2,987 nucleotides of DNA, taken from Naegleria gruberi. Lineage: Eukaryota. The stretch lies in the NCBI GenBank assembly GCA_000004985.1, contig GG739239.1; one strand, 5' to 3'. Below, piece by piece: positions 1 to 2,987 of the stretch; position 1 is the stretch's first letter, and each line of letters begins with the position of its first letter. Made by a program: the position numbers and the translations under genes. The notes beneath the pieces are model-generated. The model was given only the letters and a program-made list of their open reading frames with translations, was not told the DNA's origin and did no database searches.

Positions 1-967
1 GGGCAGACATTTTTGAGATTCGAATAATGAGTTTAATTGTTTTTTTGTTTGTTATTGAATGAAGCAACGGCAATTTTAGCTTCATTTATAGGGTTTACAA
101 GTAGTCTCGTATTTAATTTACAAGAAGGGAAATGCACAAAGATATTGTAAAATTTAAAATGGTTACCGTGTTCTAAACATGGTCTAGTAGAATCATTAAT
201 GGAAATCAAGGTTTTTTAAAGGGATTTTCTTGAAAAAGTGGTAGGCAATTAAATATGTGTACCGTGAAACTCTAATTTAACGATAGTAAGATTATTAATA
301 AAGATTTCCATATATTTTATAAAATTACAATTTACAATCAACTTTGAATGGTTCTATGAGAACTCAAAATTGAAAATAGCATTGTAAACCATGTCAAAGA
401 AACAAGCTTCAATACTGTAAATTTCCAAAAAGGTAACCATCTGGTTGCAAGCAATAGATTTAACACTCCTATCTGGGAAAATCTAATATTTAATCCAAGA
501 AATTAAATATATTGAATTAACAATGATTTAGATTTTCAGACATGTTTAGAAATTGATTAGAATACCCAAAGTCAATGAAATTGTTTCTGAAATTCTTTAA
601 CGGTGTTGGAAATGATTTCTAATGCAATGCTGAACTTTCAAACGAAATGAGATAGGATAATGACCTCAAGATGGCATTGCTGTGGAAAAAGGGCGTAATA
701 TTAATGTGTTGAAATTCATCTATTACGCGTGTAGTAGAATAAAGCTCATTGTTTTCGTATTTATTGGTGTGTAGTTGGATAAACTGTCAGTAACAAGTAT
801 CAGAACTGATATTGGAATGAAGAACTTGGAAAACCCAAAGACTGATCCACTCCACTTCTAAGAACCTTCTTCTATTACAGTGGCCATACACTAGTGAGAG
901 AGATATGAATGAACAGTAATGGCCAAATTGGCGCACATTTAAAACAAATTAAGAAGTAATAAGAAAA

Positions 968-1057
968 ATGGCGTTATCAAAGAATCATCATTTAATTTCG
1001 AGTCAATGGCTAAGGAGTTTGATTGTTGTATTGATGATGATGATGTTGCTTTCAAGA
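968..1057 (+). CDS. Candidate 5' exon encoding a signal-peptide-like N-terminus (MALSKNHHLISSQWLRSLIVVLMMMMLLSR..). The splice donor is not resolved: GT at 1058 would give a phase-0 exon of 30 codons.
   Basis: ATG at 968 opens a 36-codon ORF (to TAA 1076) with a basic n-region (K,H,H,R), a 12-residue hydrophobic core LIVVLMMMMLLS, and a small polar SRVSSSS stretch. A signal peptide is expected because DOMON domains and glycosylated S/T/N linkers are extracellular, and the 1164 ORF has no signal peptide. Caveats: the donor GTTTCA at 1058 is weak, and the acceptor is ambiguous (phase-0-compatible AGs at 1138-1139 and 1159-1160). AT-rich DNA readily yields hydrophobic ORFs by chance. Confidence 0.3.
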
Positions 1058-1075
1058 GTTTCATCATCATCATTA
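1032..1075 (+). repeat. Perfect inverted repeat / hairpin: (ATG)4 arm 1034..1045 pairs with (CAT)4 arm 1062..1073. It extends by a G-T wobble and a T-A pair to 1032/1075, with a 16-nt loop 1046..1061.
   Basis: Direct reading: GATGATGATGATG ttgctttcaagagttt CATCATCATCAT. Reverse complement of CATCATCATCAT is ATGATGATGATG. Confidence 0.8.
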
Positions 1076-1080
1076 TAAAA
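1074..1080 (+). promoter_or_regulatory. TATAAAA motif, an alternative reading in which it is a TATA box for a transcript whose first ATG is at 1164.
   Basis: TATAAAA lies ~85 nt upstream of ATG 1164. Such motifs are common by chance in AT-rich DNA, and this reading conflicts with the signal-peptide-exon hypothesis. Confidence 0.2.
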
Positions 1081-1163
1081 TATTAGATACTTATAATAAT
1101 TATAATACAACTAGAAGAATAAAAGGTTCGGAACGTAAGGCAACTATTGTATACAGTCAGAGT

Positions 1164-1380
1164 ATGAATACTCAGTTTGTATCTTCCACTGATTATCCAT
1201 CGGGAAATGTGGCCACATTCAGTTCCAATCTCAAGCTATATTGGAAATTATTAAGGAATGAAAAAAGCTCTGATATTAATGATGCAATCTTGGAATTTGG
1301 AGCTGTGGCCAAAAACACGAGAGGTTACGTCTCGTTTTGCTTTGGTTATTTAAATGGAGATCCAATGAAGGGTGATACCA
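1164..1380 (+). CDS. Exon encoding the N-terminal half of the divergent DOMON-like copy 1. The true 5' boundary is uncertain: coding-like similarity to the repeat unit extends upstream to ~1140. ATG 1164 is the first in-frame ATG.
   Basis: In-frame translation MNTQFVSSTDYPSGNVATFSSNLKLYWKLLRNEKSSDINDAILEFGAVAKNTRGYVSFCFGYLNGDPMKGDT aligns residue-for-residue with the N-terminal half of copies 2/3 (WVNSADYP..KLYWKVL..IIEFGL..GYASIGF..GMDTADT). The frame is open upstream to 1044, and '..ATIVYSQS' (1140..1163) matches the conserved 'GYSQSI' that begins copies 2/3. The exon ends at ACCA|GTAAGT, giving a phase-1 donor. Confidence 0.7.
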
Positions 1381-1437
1381 GTAAGTTGTTATTGGCAATA
1401 TTAACTTAATATTATTAATGATGATGAATTGATAAAG
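1381..1437 (+). other. Spliceosomal intron (57 nt, phase 1), GTAAGT donor and AG acceptor.
   Basis: Read-through of exon 1 hits TAA at 1407 and TGA at 1425. Joining 1380 to 1438 gives ..GDT-I-FGYYNSASQSVTIMDAWM.., which aligns colinearly with ..ADT-M-FGYVDSTGKAVILDTYM.. of copies 2/3. The donor at 1381 is the consensus GTAAGT. The only AG in the right phase (position congruent to 1 mod 3) is at 1436-1437. Confidence 0.75.
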
Positions 1438-2987
1438 TTTTCGGGTATTATAATAGTGCTTCTCAAAGTGTAACCATCATGGATGCATGGATGGTTGCAA
1501 AGCCACAATCACCAGTGAGTGATGCTTCCGATGATATCCTTCAAAGAAATGGTGGATACAACTCGGCCACAGGTGAGACACATATCAAGTGGACACGTTT
1601 CGTTAAAACAGGAGATTCCCACGATGTCATTTTCACCAATGCAGTCATGAAAACTTCCTGGGCACTCCACTCCACCAGTACTGGAATGGTTAGACATACC
1701 AGCACTGGCAAAGGTCCAAGTTTGAATTTCCTTTCAGCTGGTTATGCTACTGGTGAGTATGGAGTATTGCCAAGTCAACCAGAAGTTTCGGATGGACGTT
1801 CTAGTAGTAGTAATTCGACCTGTTCACTTCCAACTGGATATTCACAAAGTATTTTAACTCACTGGGTCAATTCTGCTGATTATCCTGCAGCTAATTACAA
1901 GTTAGTTGGAACATCTGATTCATTGAAATTATATTGGAAAGTTTTGACCAATCCAAATGATGCAAATAATCCAATTATTGAATTTGGATTGTTGGCTACT
2001 GGTATTTATGGTTATGCTTCTCTTGGTTTCAACCATGGAGCTAGTTCAGGAATGCAAACTGCTGATACCATGTTTGGATATGTTGATTCAACTGGAAAAG
2101 TGGTAATAGTTGATGCTTACATGCAAGGTAATCTTCAAGCTCCAACCTTAGATTCATCTCAAGATTTCATTTCCAAAAATGGAGGATTAAGATCTGTGAG
2201 TGGAAATTATGAGCTTCATTTGAAATGGACACGTTTGGTCAATACTATGGATTCTGCTGATCAAGCATTCACCAATGTTCAAATTCCAATATCATGGGCT
2301 CTTTCCAAAACTTCCACATCAATTACAGCTGTTCACAGTTACAGAGACAAGAATGTCATGATTAATTTCATGCAGACTGTAACTTTGTCAGATTTGGGTG
2401 TTCCTCCAGGAAGTGCTCTGACTGCAGCTTGTTCTAATAGCACAAATTCAACAAGTACTATACCACCTACCGATAATGGCAATGTTGTTACTCCTACTAA
2501 TCCTCCTATTGTTTCCAATAGCACATCTTCAAATGGCAATTCTTGTTCGTTGCCAAGTGGATATTCTCAAAGTATTACCACTAAATGGGTTAATTCTGCA
2601 GATTATCCATTGAATAATTACAAGTTAGTTGCTAATTATGGAACTTCTGATTCATTGAAATTGTATTGGAAAGTTTTAACAAATCCAAATGATGCAAATG
2701 TACCAATTATTGAATTTGGATTGATTGCCACAGGAATTTATGGTTATGCATCAATTGGATTTAATCATGGAACCAACTCTGGAATGGACACTGCTGATAC
2801 AATGTTTGGTTATGTAGATTCAACTGGTAAGGCAGTTATATTAGACACATACATGCAAGGTAATCTTCAAGCACCAACATTAGATTCATCTCAAGATTTC
2901 ATTTCCAAAAATGGTGGATTAAGATCTGTGAGTGGAAATTATGAGCTTCATTTGAAATGGACACGTTTGGTCAATACTATGGATTCT
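1438..2987 (+). CDS. Terminal in-window exon (3' partial, continues past window end) of a tandem-DOMON-domain secreted protein. It covers the C-terminal half of domain copy 1, all of copy 2 and most of copy 3.
   Basis: Phase-1 exon: nt 1438-1439 complete the codon begun at 1380, then 516 codons (1440..2987) with no stop. Translation runs ..IFGYYNSASQSVTIMDAWMVAKPQSPVSDASDDILQRNGGYNSATGETHIKWTRFV.. then two near-identical 244-aa units (CSLPTGYSQSILTHWVNSADYP..KLYWKVLTNPNDANNPIIEFGLLATGIYGYASLGFNHGASSGMQTADTMFGYVDSTGKVVIVDAYMQGNLQAPTLDSSQDFISKNGGLRSVSGNYELHLKWTRLVNTMDS..). A/T-ending codon preference is consistent throughout. Repeat-to-repeat differences are mostly synonymous, which argues for real coding sequence. 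Confidence 0.85.
1821..2432 (+). repeat. DOMON domain copy 2: complete, Cys-bounded (Cys codon 1821 to Cys codon 2430), no intron.
   Basis: CSLPTGYSQSILTHWVNSADYPAANYKLVGTSDSLKLYWKVLTNPNDANNPIIEFGLLATGIYGYASLGFNHGASSGMQTADTMFGYVDSTGKVVIVDAYMQGNLQAPTLDSSQDFISKNGGLRSVSGNYELHLKWTRLVNTMDSADQAFTNVQIPISWALSKTSTSITAVHSYRDKNVMINFMQTVTLSDLGVPPGSALTAAC. This matches the DOMON signature as in the dopamine beta-monooxygenase N-terminal domain: L.W...(I)xFxLxAxTxGWvgfGFSxxGxMxxADxvvG.., then QDYxL, then I.F.RxLxTxDxxD, then (V/I)xWA. Confidence 0.7.
2433..2543 (+). other. Inter-domain linker, Ser/Thr/Asn/Pro-rich, with three N-S-T sequons (likely N- and O-glycosylated, mucin-like).
   Basis: Translation SNSTNSTSTIPPTDNGNVVTPTNPPIVSNSTSSNGNS between the Cys codon at 2430 and the Cys codon at 2544. 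A shorter analogous linker (PSQPEVSDGRSSSSNST) sits at ~1770..1820 between copies 1 and 2. Confidence 0.6.
2544..2987 (+). repeat. DOMON domain copy 3: truncated by the window end, 732-nt period relative to copy 2.
   Basis: The same period is recovered at both ends of the unit (723-nt offset at the 5' Cys codons plus a 9-nt insertion GCTAATTAT = ANY, giving 732 nt at the 3' end). Protein ~85% identical to copy 2. Confidence 0.7.

What the first reader, a model, noticed from the sequence alone, without database searches (positions are those of the whole stretch)
2118..2987. Mosaic repeat identity: a 138-nt block that is ~98% identical between copies 2 and 3 with only synonymous differences, embedded in ~80%-identical flanks
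Segment 2118..2255 (copy 2) versus 2850..2987 (copy 3) differs at 3 of 138 positions. All three are third-codon positions and silent: GCT/GCA at 2141, ACC/ACA at 2147, GGA/GGT at 2183. The immediately preceding ~100 nt of the same domains (e.g. TTGGCTACTGGT.. versus ATTGCCACAGGA..) are only ~80% identical with several amino-acid replacements. A sharp switch from diverged to near-identical sequence inside a tandem repeat is the classic footprint of a recent gene-conversion or unequal-crossover tract (concerted evolution), not uniform purifying selection. The block runs to the window edge, so the tract may be longer. It also makes this locus prone to assembly collapse or expansion.
Basis: seen in the sequence. 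Interest (0 to 1): 0.6.

Follow-up and report, generated by a model that had tools for sequence, protein, structure and literature searches.

The report
Gene-conversion patch between duplicated DOMON domains
Two neighbouring copies of a haem-binding-type (DOMON) domain in a Naegleria gruberi ferric-reductase-family gene share a ~130-nt near-identical stretch that most likely arose by copying between gene copies, which is real but an ordinary kind of gene-family evolution.

Summary
Window 2118-2255 and 2850-2987 differ at 3 of 138 bases, all silent third positions. The 297 nt before them are 81% identical with 14 amino-acid changes.

The window is a whole orphan 2987-bp contig of Naegleria gruberi (XP_002668181, partial). 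It carries the 5' end of a DOMON + ferric-reductase family gene: a signal peptide, two short introns, one D1-type DOMON and two D2-type DOMONs. The contig ends inside the second copy of the block.

- **Silent sites:** dS between the two D2 copies falls from 0.79 in the flank to 0.11 in the block. The maximum chi-square breakpoint is at 2117 (7/10000 permutations).
- **No special constraint:** against the N. fowleri orthologue the block is as diverged as its flanks (pS 0.64-0.71 against 0.65-0.67).
- **Paralogues:** two annotated N. gruberi paralogues on a 207-kb scaffold show that copy 2 is P0119-like on both sides of the block. From about 2145 to 2271 it is P0002/copy-3-like (5 runs in 36 informative sites, p<1e-5). 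In P0002 the identity to copy 2 drops straight after the block.

The best reading is a short, bounded gene-conversion tract in a mosaic paralogue family. This is a known phenomenon of modest interest. Unresolved: whether the contig is an allele or a third paralogue. I could obtain no DNA for the paralogues.

The parts
968..1057 (+). Exon 1, missed by the deposited model. It encodes MALSKNHHLISSQWLRSLIVVLMMMMLLSR, a signal-peptide-like N-terminus.
   Evidence: Reading of the sequence. A GT donor lies at 1058 in phase 0. The same ORF start occurs in environmental contig L003 with 3.3% mismatch. The N. fowleri and N. lovaniensis orthologues have hydrophobic N-termini followed by I/V-x-YSQS. No signal-peptide predictor was run.
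1058..1139 (+). Intron 1 (82 nt, GT..AG).
   Evidence: Splicing joins ..LLSR to ATIVYSQSMNTQ.., which matches the orthologue motif INYSQSILT. The interval has 11% mismatch and 8 gap columns against L003, whereas the flanking exon 2 has 0.4% mismatch and no gaps.
1140..1380 (+). Exon 2, the first half of DOMON unit 1 (D1 type).
   Evidence: Frame-3 translation. The deposited protein P0001 starts at ATG 1164. Pfam DOMON PF03351 matches in 3 stretches, whole-protein E=2.7e-30.
1381..1437 (+). Intron 2 (57 nt, GTAAGT..AG).
   Evidence: The deposited protein reads ..KGDTIFGYYNS.. across it. The orthologues have GDTMFGF/Y at the same place. There is 8% mismatch and 10 gap columns against L003.
1438..2987 (+). 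Exon 3, open at the contig end. It holds the rest of DOMON unit 1 plus a Ser-rich linker (to 1820), DOMON unit 2 (copy 2, 1821-2399), an S/T/N/P-rich linker (2400-2543), and DOMON unit 3 (copy 3, 2544-2987, truncated by the contig end).
   Evidence: Frame 3 is uninterrupted. Pfam DOMON matches three times. Unit boundaries come from the alignments.
2118..2255 (+). The near-identical block as it sits in copy 2. It encodes YMQGNLQAPTLDSSQDFISKNGGLRSVSGNYELHLKWTRLVNTMDS.
   Evidence: It shows 3/138 silent differences to 2850-2987, with dS 0.11 and dN 0. In the low-confidence model it covers a loop plus a beta-hairpin, with block-mean pLDDT 69-79 over residues 111-140 of the unit.
2850..2987 (+). 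The near-identical block as it sits in copy 3. It runs to the last base of the contig.
   Evidence: The contig length of 2987 equals the window length.
2145..2273 (+). Minimal extent of the patch in copy 2 that is of P0002-X/copy-3 type. The outer bounds are 2118 and 2285.
   Evidence: In the comparison of copy 2, P0002 D2 and P0119 D2, informative codons at 2145-2271 side with P0002. The flanking informative codons at 2115 and 2286 side with P0119.
2631..2639 (+). A 9-nt indel (GCTAATTAT = Ala-Asn-Tyr) present in copy 3 and absent from copy 2. It changes the repeat offset from 723 to 732.
   Evidence: The three residues are also present in P0002, P0119 and L003, and as GTY in the orthologues. 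Copy 2 therefore carries a deletion.

Best explanation
The window is the 5' part of a Naegleria gruberi gene of the DOMON + ferric-reductase (eFRE) family. It encodes a signal peptide, one D1-type DOMON domain, and two tandem D2-type DOMON domains where its relatives have one.

The 138-nt near-identical block marks a short non-reciprocal recombination (gene-conversion) tract of about 130-170 nt. It homogenised copy 2 with the copy-3/P0002 lineage.

- **Flanks:** outside the tract, copy 2 belongs to a different lineage. It is nearly identical in protein to the second DOMON of paralogue NAEGRDRAFT_82019 (P0119). The flanks therefore carry the older divergence (dS about 0.8).
- **Tract:** the tract carries only the few silent changes that accumulated since the event (dS about 0.1, or 1 difference in 108 nt after position 2147).
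- **Contig break:** the contig probably ends here because the assembler ran into sequence repeated elsewhere.

What is shown:
- the mismatch pattern;
- the contrast at silent sites;
- the lack of cross-species constraint;
- the protein-level mosaic against two paralogues.

What is inferred:
- the mechanism (heteroduplex repair or synthesis-dependent strand annealing between misaligned repeats);
- the donor direction (copy-3/X type into copy 2);
- that copy 3 continues like P0002 beyond the contig end.
For: 1. **Mismatch pattern.** There are 3/138 differences, all silent, against 56/297 upstream.
2. **Silent sites.** Nei-Gojobori dS is 0.79 in the flank and 0.11 in the block. Among identical-amino-acid codons, 26/81 differ in the flank and 3/43 in the block (Fisher p=0.0015). 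The maximum chi-square breakpoint is at 2117, reached by 7/10000 shuffles.
3. **No special constraint.** Against N. fowleri D2, pS in the block is 0.64-0.71 and in the flanks 0.65-0.67. dN is 0.25 against 0.31-0.33. Copy 1 against copy 2 has pS 0.60 in the block. Protein identity of the block to the N. fowleri and N. lovaniensis orthologues is 67-76%, against 61-70% for the preceding segment. The block has no RNA structure, no Rfam or tRNA hit and no long antisense ORF.
4. **Incongruence across paralogues.** In head plus body, 7 sites group (copy 2 + P0119 | copy 3 + P0002). In the block, 8 sites group copy 2 = copy 3 = P0002 with P0119 different (Fisher p=1.6e-4). The three-sequence site string aaaaaaaaaaa/xxxxxxxxx/aaaaaaaa/xxxxx/aaa has 5 runs in 36 sites (p<1e-5). 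At three block sites (L, D, S) copy 2 shares states with copy 3/P0002 that differ from both P0119 and one or both outgroup orthologues.
5. **A right-hand boundary exists.** Copy 2 against P0002 D2 is 84% identical before the block, 98% in it and 65% after it.
6. **Independent occurrence of the block.** The same block protein sequence (45/46) occurs in P0002 on a separate 207-kb scaffold. It is therefore not created by the contig end.
7. **Family context.** P0002 and P0119 have 510/514 identical reductase halves but much more diverged DOMON regions, so sequence exchange between these paralogues is plausible.
Against: - No DNA could be obtained for P0002 or P0119. The paralogue evidence is therefore protein-level only, and silent-site relationships among all four D2 units are untested.
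- Copy 3 is cut by the contig end. Its own right-hand boundary is inferred from P0002, which differs from copy 3 at 4 of 119 aligned residues.
- The synonymous-only breakpoint test is only moderately significant (p=0.02), and the longest-identical-run test gives p=0.045.
- The mosaic could equally be described as the flanks of copy 2 having been overwritten from a P0119-type donor, leaving the block as a remnant.
- The contig is an orphan, probably built from few Sanger reads, and no read-level check is possible.
Confidence: 0.72

Rival explanations
1. Recent register-shifted tandem duplication or unequal crossover. Under this reading, the high identity starting at 2118/2850 is the start of a long (about 732 nt or more) young duplicate. 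It would continue past the contig end, so copy 3 would be followed by a near-copy of 2256-2849.
For: The identity runs to the last base of the contig and is perfect over the last 104 nt. A long 98-100% tandem repeat would explain why a Sanger assembly broke here. Copy number does differ between this contig (3 DOMON units) and its relatives (2 units).
Against: In copy 2 the P0002-type run of informative sites ends by 2271-2285, and the P0119 type resumes. P0002, which matches copy 3 at 115/119 residues, diverges from copy 2 immediately after the block, with 65% identity in the tail. Neither observation speaks directly for copy 3 itself.
Confidence: 0.12
2. Assembly artefact. Under this reading, the last ~138 nt of the orphan contig, or the mosaic of copy 2, come from reads of different paralogues or haplotypes merged into one consensus. 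The near-identity would then not be a property of one DNA molecule.
For: The window is an entire 2987-bp contig that ends inside a repeat. No annotated N. gruberi protein supplies the rest of this gene. Copy 2 alternates between P0119-type and P0002-type segments, as a mixed consensus could. Naegleria is described as mainly a heterozygous diploid (PMC9928731).
Against: - The three silent differences show two distinct sequences, not one read set used twice.
- Copy 2, the 2400-2543 linker and the head of copy 3 carry residues and a 9-nt deletion found in neither P0002 nor P0119. A mixture of those two genes cannot produce them.
- The block's protein sequence is also present in P0002 on a large scaffold.
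- Switches every 100-300 nt are shorter than Sanger reads.
Confidence: 0.08
3. Selective constraint. Under this reading, the block is kept identical because the protein segment (it contains the HLKWTR motif) or the nucleotide sequence itself is under strong purifying selection or codon bias.
For: The block is 100% identical in protein between copies 2 and 3, and 98% identical to P0002. K, W, T and R of the KWTR motif are invariant across all D1 and D2 units aligned.
Against: Silent sites are also nearly identical (dS 0.11 against 0.79), which protein-level selection does not explain. Across species and against copy 1 the block is as diverged as its flanks at both silent and replacement sites. 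P0119 differs at 8/46 residues in the block. There is no RNA structure signal.
Confidence: 0.03

Closest known systems
DOMON-containing eukaryotic ferric reductases (eFRE subfamily with extracellular DOMON, model M10 of Zhang et al. 2013, PMC3591440). The nearest members are N. gruberi NAEGRDRAFT_75169 (XP_002669946) and NAEGRDRAFT_82019 (XP_002669907).
   Same: All have N-terminal extracellular DOMON domains (Pfam PF03351). Unit 1 is 101/101 identical to the available part of NAEGRDRAFT_75169 D1. Copy 3 is 115/119 identical to its D2. Copy 2 is about 97% identical to NAEGRDRAFT_82019 D2 outside the block. The paper reports seven N. gruberi paralogues with one or two DOMON domains.
   Different: This contig has three DOMON units (D1 + D2 + D2) and a unique S/T/N/P-rich inter-domain linker. 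Its transmembrane and reductase part is not on the contig, so that half of the architecture is only assumed.
Non-allelic (ectopic or intragenic) gene conversion between tandem duplicates and paralogues. Textbook cases known to me, not searched here, include primate gamma-globin genes and opsin genes.
   Same: There is a short contiguous tract of near-identity inside older, diverged duplicates. Silent sites are homogenised. The gene tree differs between tract and flanks. The tract length of order 100-200 nt is typical.
   Different: Here it involves domain-sized repeats inside one gene of a heterolobosean amoeba. The evidence from the other paralogues is protein-level only. The physical relation of the contig to those paralogues (allele or third locus) is unknown.
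Cytochrome-b-type DOMON superfamily domains, for example the cytochrome domain of Coprinopsis cinerea pyranose dehydrogenase (PDB 6jt6) and the ethylbenzene dehydrogenase gamma subunit (2ivf_C).
   Same: These are the best two structural matches of the predicted copy-2 fold, a beta-sandwich. Pfam assigns DOMON.
   Different: The matches are weak (E=9e-3, TM 0.44) and rest on a low-confidence model (pLDDT 56.8). There is no sequence-level PDB hit. Haem binding was not tested.

Membership tests
Gene-conversion tract between paralogous repeats | A contiguous segment of significantly higher identity, bounded by diverged sequence | tested here: met
   The left boundary at 2117/2118 comes from the maximum chi-square test, 7/10000. 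The right boundary is seen only by proxy: copy 2 against P0002 is 98% in the block and 65% after it.
Gene-conversion tract between paralogous repeats | Homogenisation extends to silent sites, so it is not explained by protein-level selection | tested here: met
   dS is 0.11 in the block and 0.79 in the flank. Fisher p=0.0015 on identical-amino-acid codons.
Gene-conversion tract between paralogous repeats | Phylogenetic incongruence between tract and flanks when further paralogues or outgroups are added | tested here: met
   At protein level, the flanks group copy 2 with P0119 D2 and the block groups copy 2 with copy 3/P0002 D2. There are 5 runs in 36 sites (p<1e-5) and Fisher p=1.6e-4. This was not testable at DNA level.
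Gene-conversion tract between paralogous repeats | The segment is not unusually conserved in orthologues or other copies | tested here: met
   Against N. fowleri D2, pS is 0.64-0.71 in the block and 0.65-0.67 in the flanks, with similar dN.
Gene-conversion tract between paralogous repeats | Both copies verified as distinct positions on one real DNA molecule | not testable with these tools
   No reads or independent assembly of N. gruberi were reachable. The metagenome scans found nothing. The three silent differences and the unique flanking sequence argue for reality.
DOMON + ferric reductase (eFRE-DOMON) proteins | Extracellular DOMON domain(s), Pfam PF03351 | tested here: met
   There are three matched stretches, whole-protein E=2.7e-30 and 105.6 bits against a cut-off of 32.7.
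DOMON + ferric reductase (eFRE-DOMON) proteins | Ferric-reductase transmembrane domain plus FAD- and NAD-binding domains C-terminal to the DOMONs | not testable with these tools
   The contig ends in the third DOMON. These domains are present in the nearest relative P0002 (PF01794, PF08022, PF00175, PF08030) and in part in the orthologues P0108 and P0109 (PF01794, PF08030). P0119 is 510/514 identical to P0002 over that half.
DOMON + ferric reductase (eFRE-DOMON) proteins | Secretory signal at the N-terminus, placing the DOMONs outside the cell | tested here: inconclusive
   A hydrophobic N-terminal exon is found at 968-1057 and is conserved in L003. No signal-peptide predictor was available.
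Tandem array homogenised by unequal crossing-over (whole-unit concerted evolution) | High identity over the whole repeat unit between neighbouring copies | tested here: not met
   Only the block is near-identical. The rest of the shared unit is 81% identical with dS 0.79.
Tandem array homogenised by unequal crossing-over (whole-unit concerted evolution) | Copy-number differences between alleles, strains or close relatives | tested here: inconclusive
   This contig has 3 DOMON units. P0119, N. fowleri and N. lovaniensis have 2, and the N-terminally truncated P0002 model also shows 2 DOMON stretches. Whether the contig is allelic to P0002 is unknown.

The most novel reading that the evidence does not exclude
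The N. gruberi DOMON-ferric-reductase paralogues may behave as a cassette system. In this reading, an almost invariant reductase 'chassis' (510/514 identical between two paralogues) is combined with extracellular DOMON modules. Those modules would be repeatedly reshuffled by short conversion tracts and domain duplication, generating ectodomain diversity under selection, for instance for different extracellular electron acceptors or iron sources. The orphan contig would then be a heterozygous 3-DOMON structural allele within the clonal strain NEG-M.
Probability: 0.07. Interest if true: 0.55.

Novelty: new member of a known kind. Interest (0 to 1): 0.27.

Why it matters
- **Annotation.** XP_002668181 is a fragment of a DOMON-ferric-reductase gene, and its start is mis-annotated. 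It appears to carry three DOMON domains, whereas the published survey of the family (PMC3591440) reports one or two.
- **Genome quality.** The case shows where and why the 2010 N. gruberi assembly left an orphan contig. It flags the two-gene cluster on the 207-kb scaffold as a region that may be collapsed or heterozygous.
- **Evolution.** It is a clean small example of conversion between domain repeats and paralogues in a heterolobosean. It does not open a new question.

Tried and rejected
- **DNA of the paralogues was not retrievable.** Exact-protein look-ups for P0001, P0002 and P0119 found nothing on record. Silent-site comparison with those genes was therefore impossible.
- **Metagenome scans found nothing.** I tried a protein-pattern scan and an exact 35-mer from the block.
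- **The word-index protein search was unreliable here.**
  - One search was swamped, probably by the low-complexity linker, and returned only the contig's own protein.
  - One search returned nothing at all.
  - The exhaustive HMMER search found the relatives.
- **Synteny with N. fowleri gave no result.** The upstream neighbour of the N. fowleri orthologue has no match in window 1-967.
- **Structure work added little.**
  - The PDB sequence search gave no meaningful hit.
  - The AlphaFold model of copy 2 from a 9-sequence alignment is low confidence, pLDDT 56.8.
  - The fold search gave only weak DOMON-superfamily cytochrome hits.
- **Structural RNA in the block was rejected.** Rfam gave only a sub-threshold mir-598 match elsewhere. 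There were no tRNAs. The block folds no better than shuffles.
- **The idea that P0002's single D2 is a gene-model artefact that splices out one unit was rejected.** Its head and linker carry residues found in neither window copy, and it is collinear with the two-DOMON orthologues.
- **A pure chimera of reads from P0002 and P0119 was rejected.** The contig has unique residues, a unique linker and a private 9-nt deletion.
Full report
**What the window is.** The 2987 bases are a complete small contig of Naegleria gruberi. The only database protein that matches at 100% is 'predicted protein, partial [Naegleria gruberi]' (XP_002668181 / EFC35437), and its longest contig is 2987 bp. The sequence is eukaryotic and 34% G+C.

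**Gene structure.** On the + strand, frame 3, an ORF runs from 1164 to the contig end, interrupted by a 57-nt GT..AG intron at 1381-1437. The deposited protein reads GDTIFGYY across that intron.

The deposited model misses the true start:
- An exon at 968-1057 encodes a hydrophobic, signal-peptide-like N-terminus.
- An 82-nt intron (1058-1139) joins it in phase to ATIVYSQSMNTQ.., which matches the INYSQSILT motif at the mature N-terminus of the N. fowleri and N. lovaniensis orthologues.
- An environmental metagenome contig (L003, ERZ929261) is homologous to window 1-1908.
- Against L003 the exons show 0.4-3.3% mismatch with almost no indels.
- The introns show 8-11% mismatch with indels, which supports this exon-intron model.

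**Domain content.** Pfam finds three DOMON (PF03351) stretches, E=2.7e-30.
- Unit 1 (to about 1820) is a D1-type DOMON.
- Units 2 (1821-2399) and 3 (2544-2987, truncated) are D2-type, only about 41-47% identical to D1 types.
- The two D2 units are separated by an S/T/N/P-rich linker (2400-2543).

**The observation.** At offset 732, positions 2118-2255 and 2850-2987 differ at 2141, 2147 and 2183 only. All three are silent third positions.
- The 297 nt upstream within the same units are 81.1% identical with 14 amino-acid differences. The last 126 nt of that stretch are 75.4% identical.
- Nei-Gojobori estimates are dS 0.79 / dN 0.11 upstream and dS 0.11 / dN 0 in the block.
- A maximum chi-square scan places the breakpoint after 2117, and only 7 of 10000 shuffles do as well.
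- Restricted to codons with identical amino acids, 26/81 differ upstream against 3/43 in the block (Fisher p=0.0015). The breakpoint permutation on those codons gives p=0.02.

**Is it constraint?** No.
- Against the intronless N. fowleri orthologue (L002 3001-6021), silent divergence is saturated in both block and flanks: pS 0.64-0.71 against 0.65-0.67.
- dN is also similar, 0.25 against 0.31-0.33.
- Copy 1 against copy 2 has pS 0.60 in the block.
- At protein level the block is 67-76% identical to the N. fowleri and N. lovaniensis orthologues, against 61-70% for the preceding segment.
- The block RNA folds no better than shuffles, z=+0.48.
- There is no Rfam or tRNA match in the block and no long antisense ORF.

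**Relatives that settle the interpretation.** An exhaustive HMMER search and cluster look-ups revealed two annotated N. gruberi paralogues on one 207,235-bp scaffold:
- P0002 (NAEGRDRAFT_75169, XP_002669946). Its model is N-terminally truncated.
- P0119 (NAEGRDRAFT_82019, XP_002669907, 978 aa).

Both are D1 + D2 + ferric-reductase transmembrane / FAD / NAD-binding proteins. They belong to the DOMON-eFRE subfamily of Zhang et al. 2013, which reports seven N. gruberi paralogues with one or two DOMONs (PMC3591440). The N. fowleri and N. lovaniensis orthologues also have two DOMONs.

How the window's units relate to them:
- Unit 1 is 101/101 identical to the available part of P0002 D1.
- Copy 3 is 70/73 identical to P0002 D2 ('X') in the body and 45/46 in the block.
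- Copy 2 is nearly identical to P0119 D2 ('A2') in head, body and most of the tail.

**Site patterns along the unit.**
- Among the four N. gruberi D2 units, the seven informative sites before the block all group (copy 2 + A2 | copy 3 + X).
- The eight variable sites in the block all read copy 2 = copy 3 = X, with A2 different (Fisher p=1.6e-4).
- Scoring copy 2 against X and A2 along the unit gives aaaaaaaaaaa/xxxxxxxxx/aaaaaaaa/xxxxx/aaa, which is 5 runs in 36 sites (permutation p<1e-5).
- The X-type run covers codons 2145-2271. It is flanked by A2-type codons at 2115 and 2286, so the tract is 129-168 nt long.
- At three block sites (L, D, S) copy 2 shares states with copy 3/X that differ from A2 and from one or both outgroup orthologues.
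- In the body, copy 3 and X share derived states (N, D, T) that copy 2 lacks.

This is genuine tree incongruence, not just rate variation. One residue (Met, 2247-2249) is shared only by copies 2 and 3, against Lys in X, A2 and both outgroups. That points to exchange between the two window copies themselves.

**Does the tract extend past the contig end?** This cannot be read directly. P0002 is the best proxy for copy 3, and its identity to copy 2 is 84% before the block, 98% in it and 65% after it. The island is thus bounded on both sides in a sequence from an independent, large scaffold. The same fact argues against the block being an artefact of the contig end.

**Mechanism and history (inferred).**
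- A D2 unit was duplicated in tandem in the N. gruberi lineage, since the orthologues have one D2. The junction joins the post-DOMON stalk (PPGS..C..) to a new linker and a new CSLP.. head.
- The units and the paralogues then exchanged short patches by non-allelic gene conversion. The block is the youngest patch, with 1-3 silent differences.
- A second, more diverged X-like patch lies at 2376-2442.
- The near-identity of the reductase halves of P0002 and P0119 (510/514), beside much more diverged DOMON regions, shows that large-scale exchange or very recent duplication also occurs in this family.
- The mosaic can be described either way: the block converted into an A2-type unit, or the flanks of an X-type unit overwritten by A2. 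The data do not decide which.

**What remains open.**
- The contig is an orphan. No annotated N. gruberi protein supplies the rest of the gene.
- It may be a structurally different allele of NAEGRDRAFT_75169. Naegleria is described as mainly a heterozygous diploid (PMC9928731).
- Alternatively it may be a third paralogue whose conserved 3' half was collapsed onto the others during assembly.
- A pure read chimera of the two annotated genes is unlikely. Copy 2, the linker and the head of copy 3 carry private residues and a private 9-nt deletion, and the three silent differences show two distinct block sequences.
- No DNA was retrievable for the paralogues, and two metagenome scans found nothing.

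**Structure.** An AlphaFold model of copy 2 is a beta-sandwich of low confidence, pLDDT 56.8.
- Its two best PDB fold matches are haem-b domains of the DOMON superfamily: 6jt6 (E=9e-3, TM 0.44) and 2ivf_C. Both matches are weak.
- In the model the block covers a loop and a beta-hairpin that includes the conserved KWTR motif.
- Haem binding and electron relay to extracellular acceptors are family-level inferences only.

**Verdict.** It is a short gene-conversion tract in a mosaic family of DOMON modules, sitting at the end of an orphan contig. The phenomenon is well known. The modest new points are a three-DOMON form of this gene family and a corrected gene model.

Noticed in passing
window 968-1163: The deposited gene model (XP_002668181) starts at ATG 1164. 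The gene most likely starts at ATG 968, with a signal-peptide exon (968-1057), an 82-nt intron (1058-1139), and exon 2 beginning at 1140.
   Followed up: yes
window 1032-1075: A strong hairpin lies here: GAUGAUGAUGAUG..CAUCAUCAUCAU, -22 kcal/mol, z=-5.5 against shuffles. It straddles the exon 1 / intron 1 junction, so the GT donor at 1058 sits inside it. It also gave the only (sub-threshold, chance-level) Rfam hit, mir-598. By eye, a similar inverted repeat is present in L003 (about 1292-1346). Any role in splicing or translation is unknown.
   Followed up: partly
window 1-10; L003 141-317: The first 10 bases of the contig are the reverse complement of the start (ATGTCTGCCC) of a 58-aa hydrophobic small-protein ORF on the minus strand. 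That ORF is seen complete in environmental contig L003. The contig thus begins 10 nt inside the neighbouring gene, so both contig ends sit at or inside genes.
   Followed up: partly
P0002 vs P0119 (N. gruberi 207,235-bp scaffold; not in the window): The two annotated paralogues have 510/514 identical residues over the whole transmembrane-reductase half. Their second DOMONs are less than 90% identical in each aligned segment, with 8 of 46 block residues different. Window unit 1, identical to the available part of P0002 D1, is about 62% identical to P0119 D1. Either the 3' halves were homogenised recently or the ectodomains diverge very fast.
   Followed up: partly
window 2400-2543: The inter-domain linker is rich in S/T/N/P, with several N-x-S/T sequons and an internal 20-nt imperfect repeat (2432-2451 against 2513-2532, 85%). 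Its last ~30 codons have no counterpart in P0002, P0119 or the orthologues. It looks like a glycosylated spacer created at the duplication junction.
   Followed up: partly
window 2823-2834: Copy 3 differs from P0002 D2 by three replacements packed into four codons (STGKA against SSGNP), inside 119 otherwise almost identical residues. Its silent codons here also differ from copy 2 (GGT AAG against GGA AAA). The cluster is unexplained. It could be a micro-conversion from another donor or a multi-nucleotide mutation.
   Followed up: no
window 2544-2630: The head of copy 3 (CSLPSGYSQSITTKWVNSADYPLNNYKLV) is the most diverged of all N. gruberi D2 heads, with 6/29 differences from P0002. The heads of copy 2, P0002, P0119 and L003 are all alike. 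L003's head is 97.7% identical in DNA to copy 2's head and 82.5% identical to copy 3's.
   Followed up: partly
L004 259-901 (ENA metagenome contig ERZ27315067, 1012 bp): This contig from an unidentified source is related at 65-69% nt identity. It shows a D2-like block and tail, a short N/G/T-rich linker and then another D2-like body and block, with frameshifts between segments. Tandem D2-type units may therefore exist outside N. gruberi NEG-M, or this may be a pseudogene or an error-rich assembly.
   Followed up: partly
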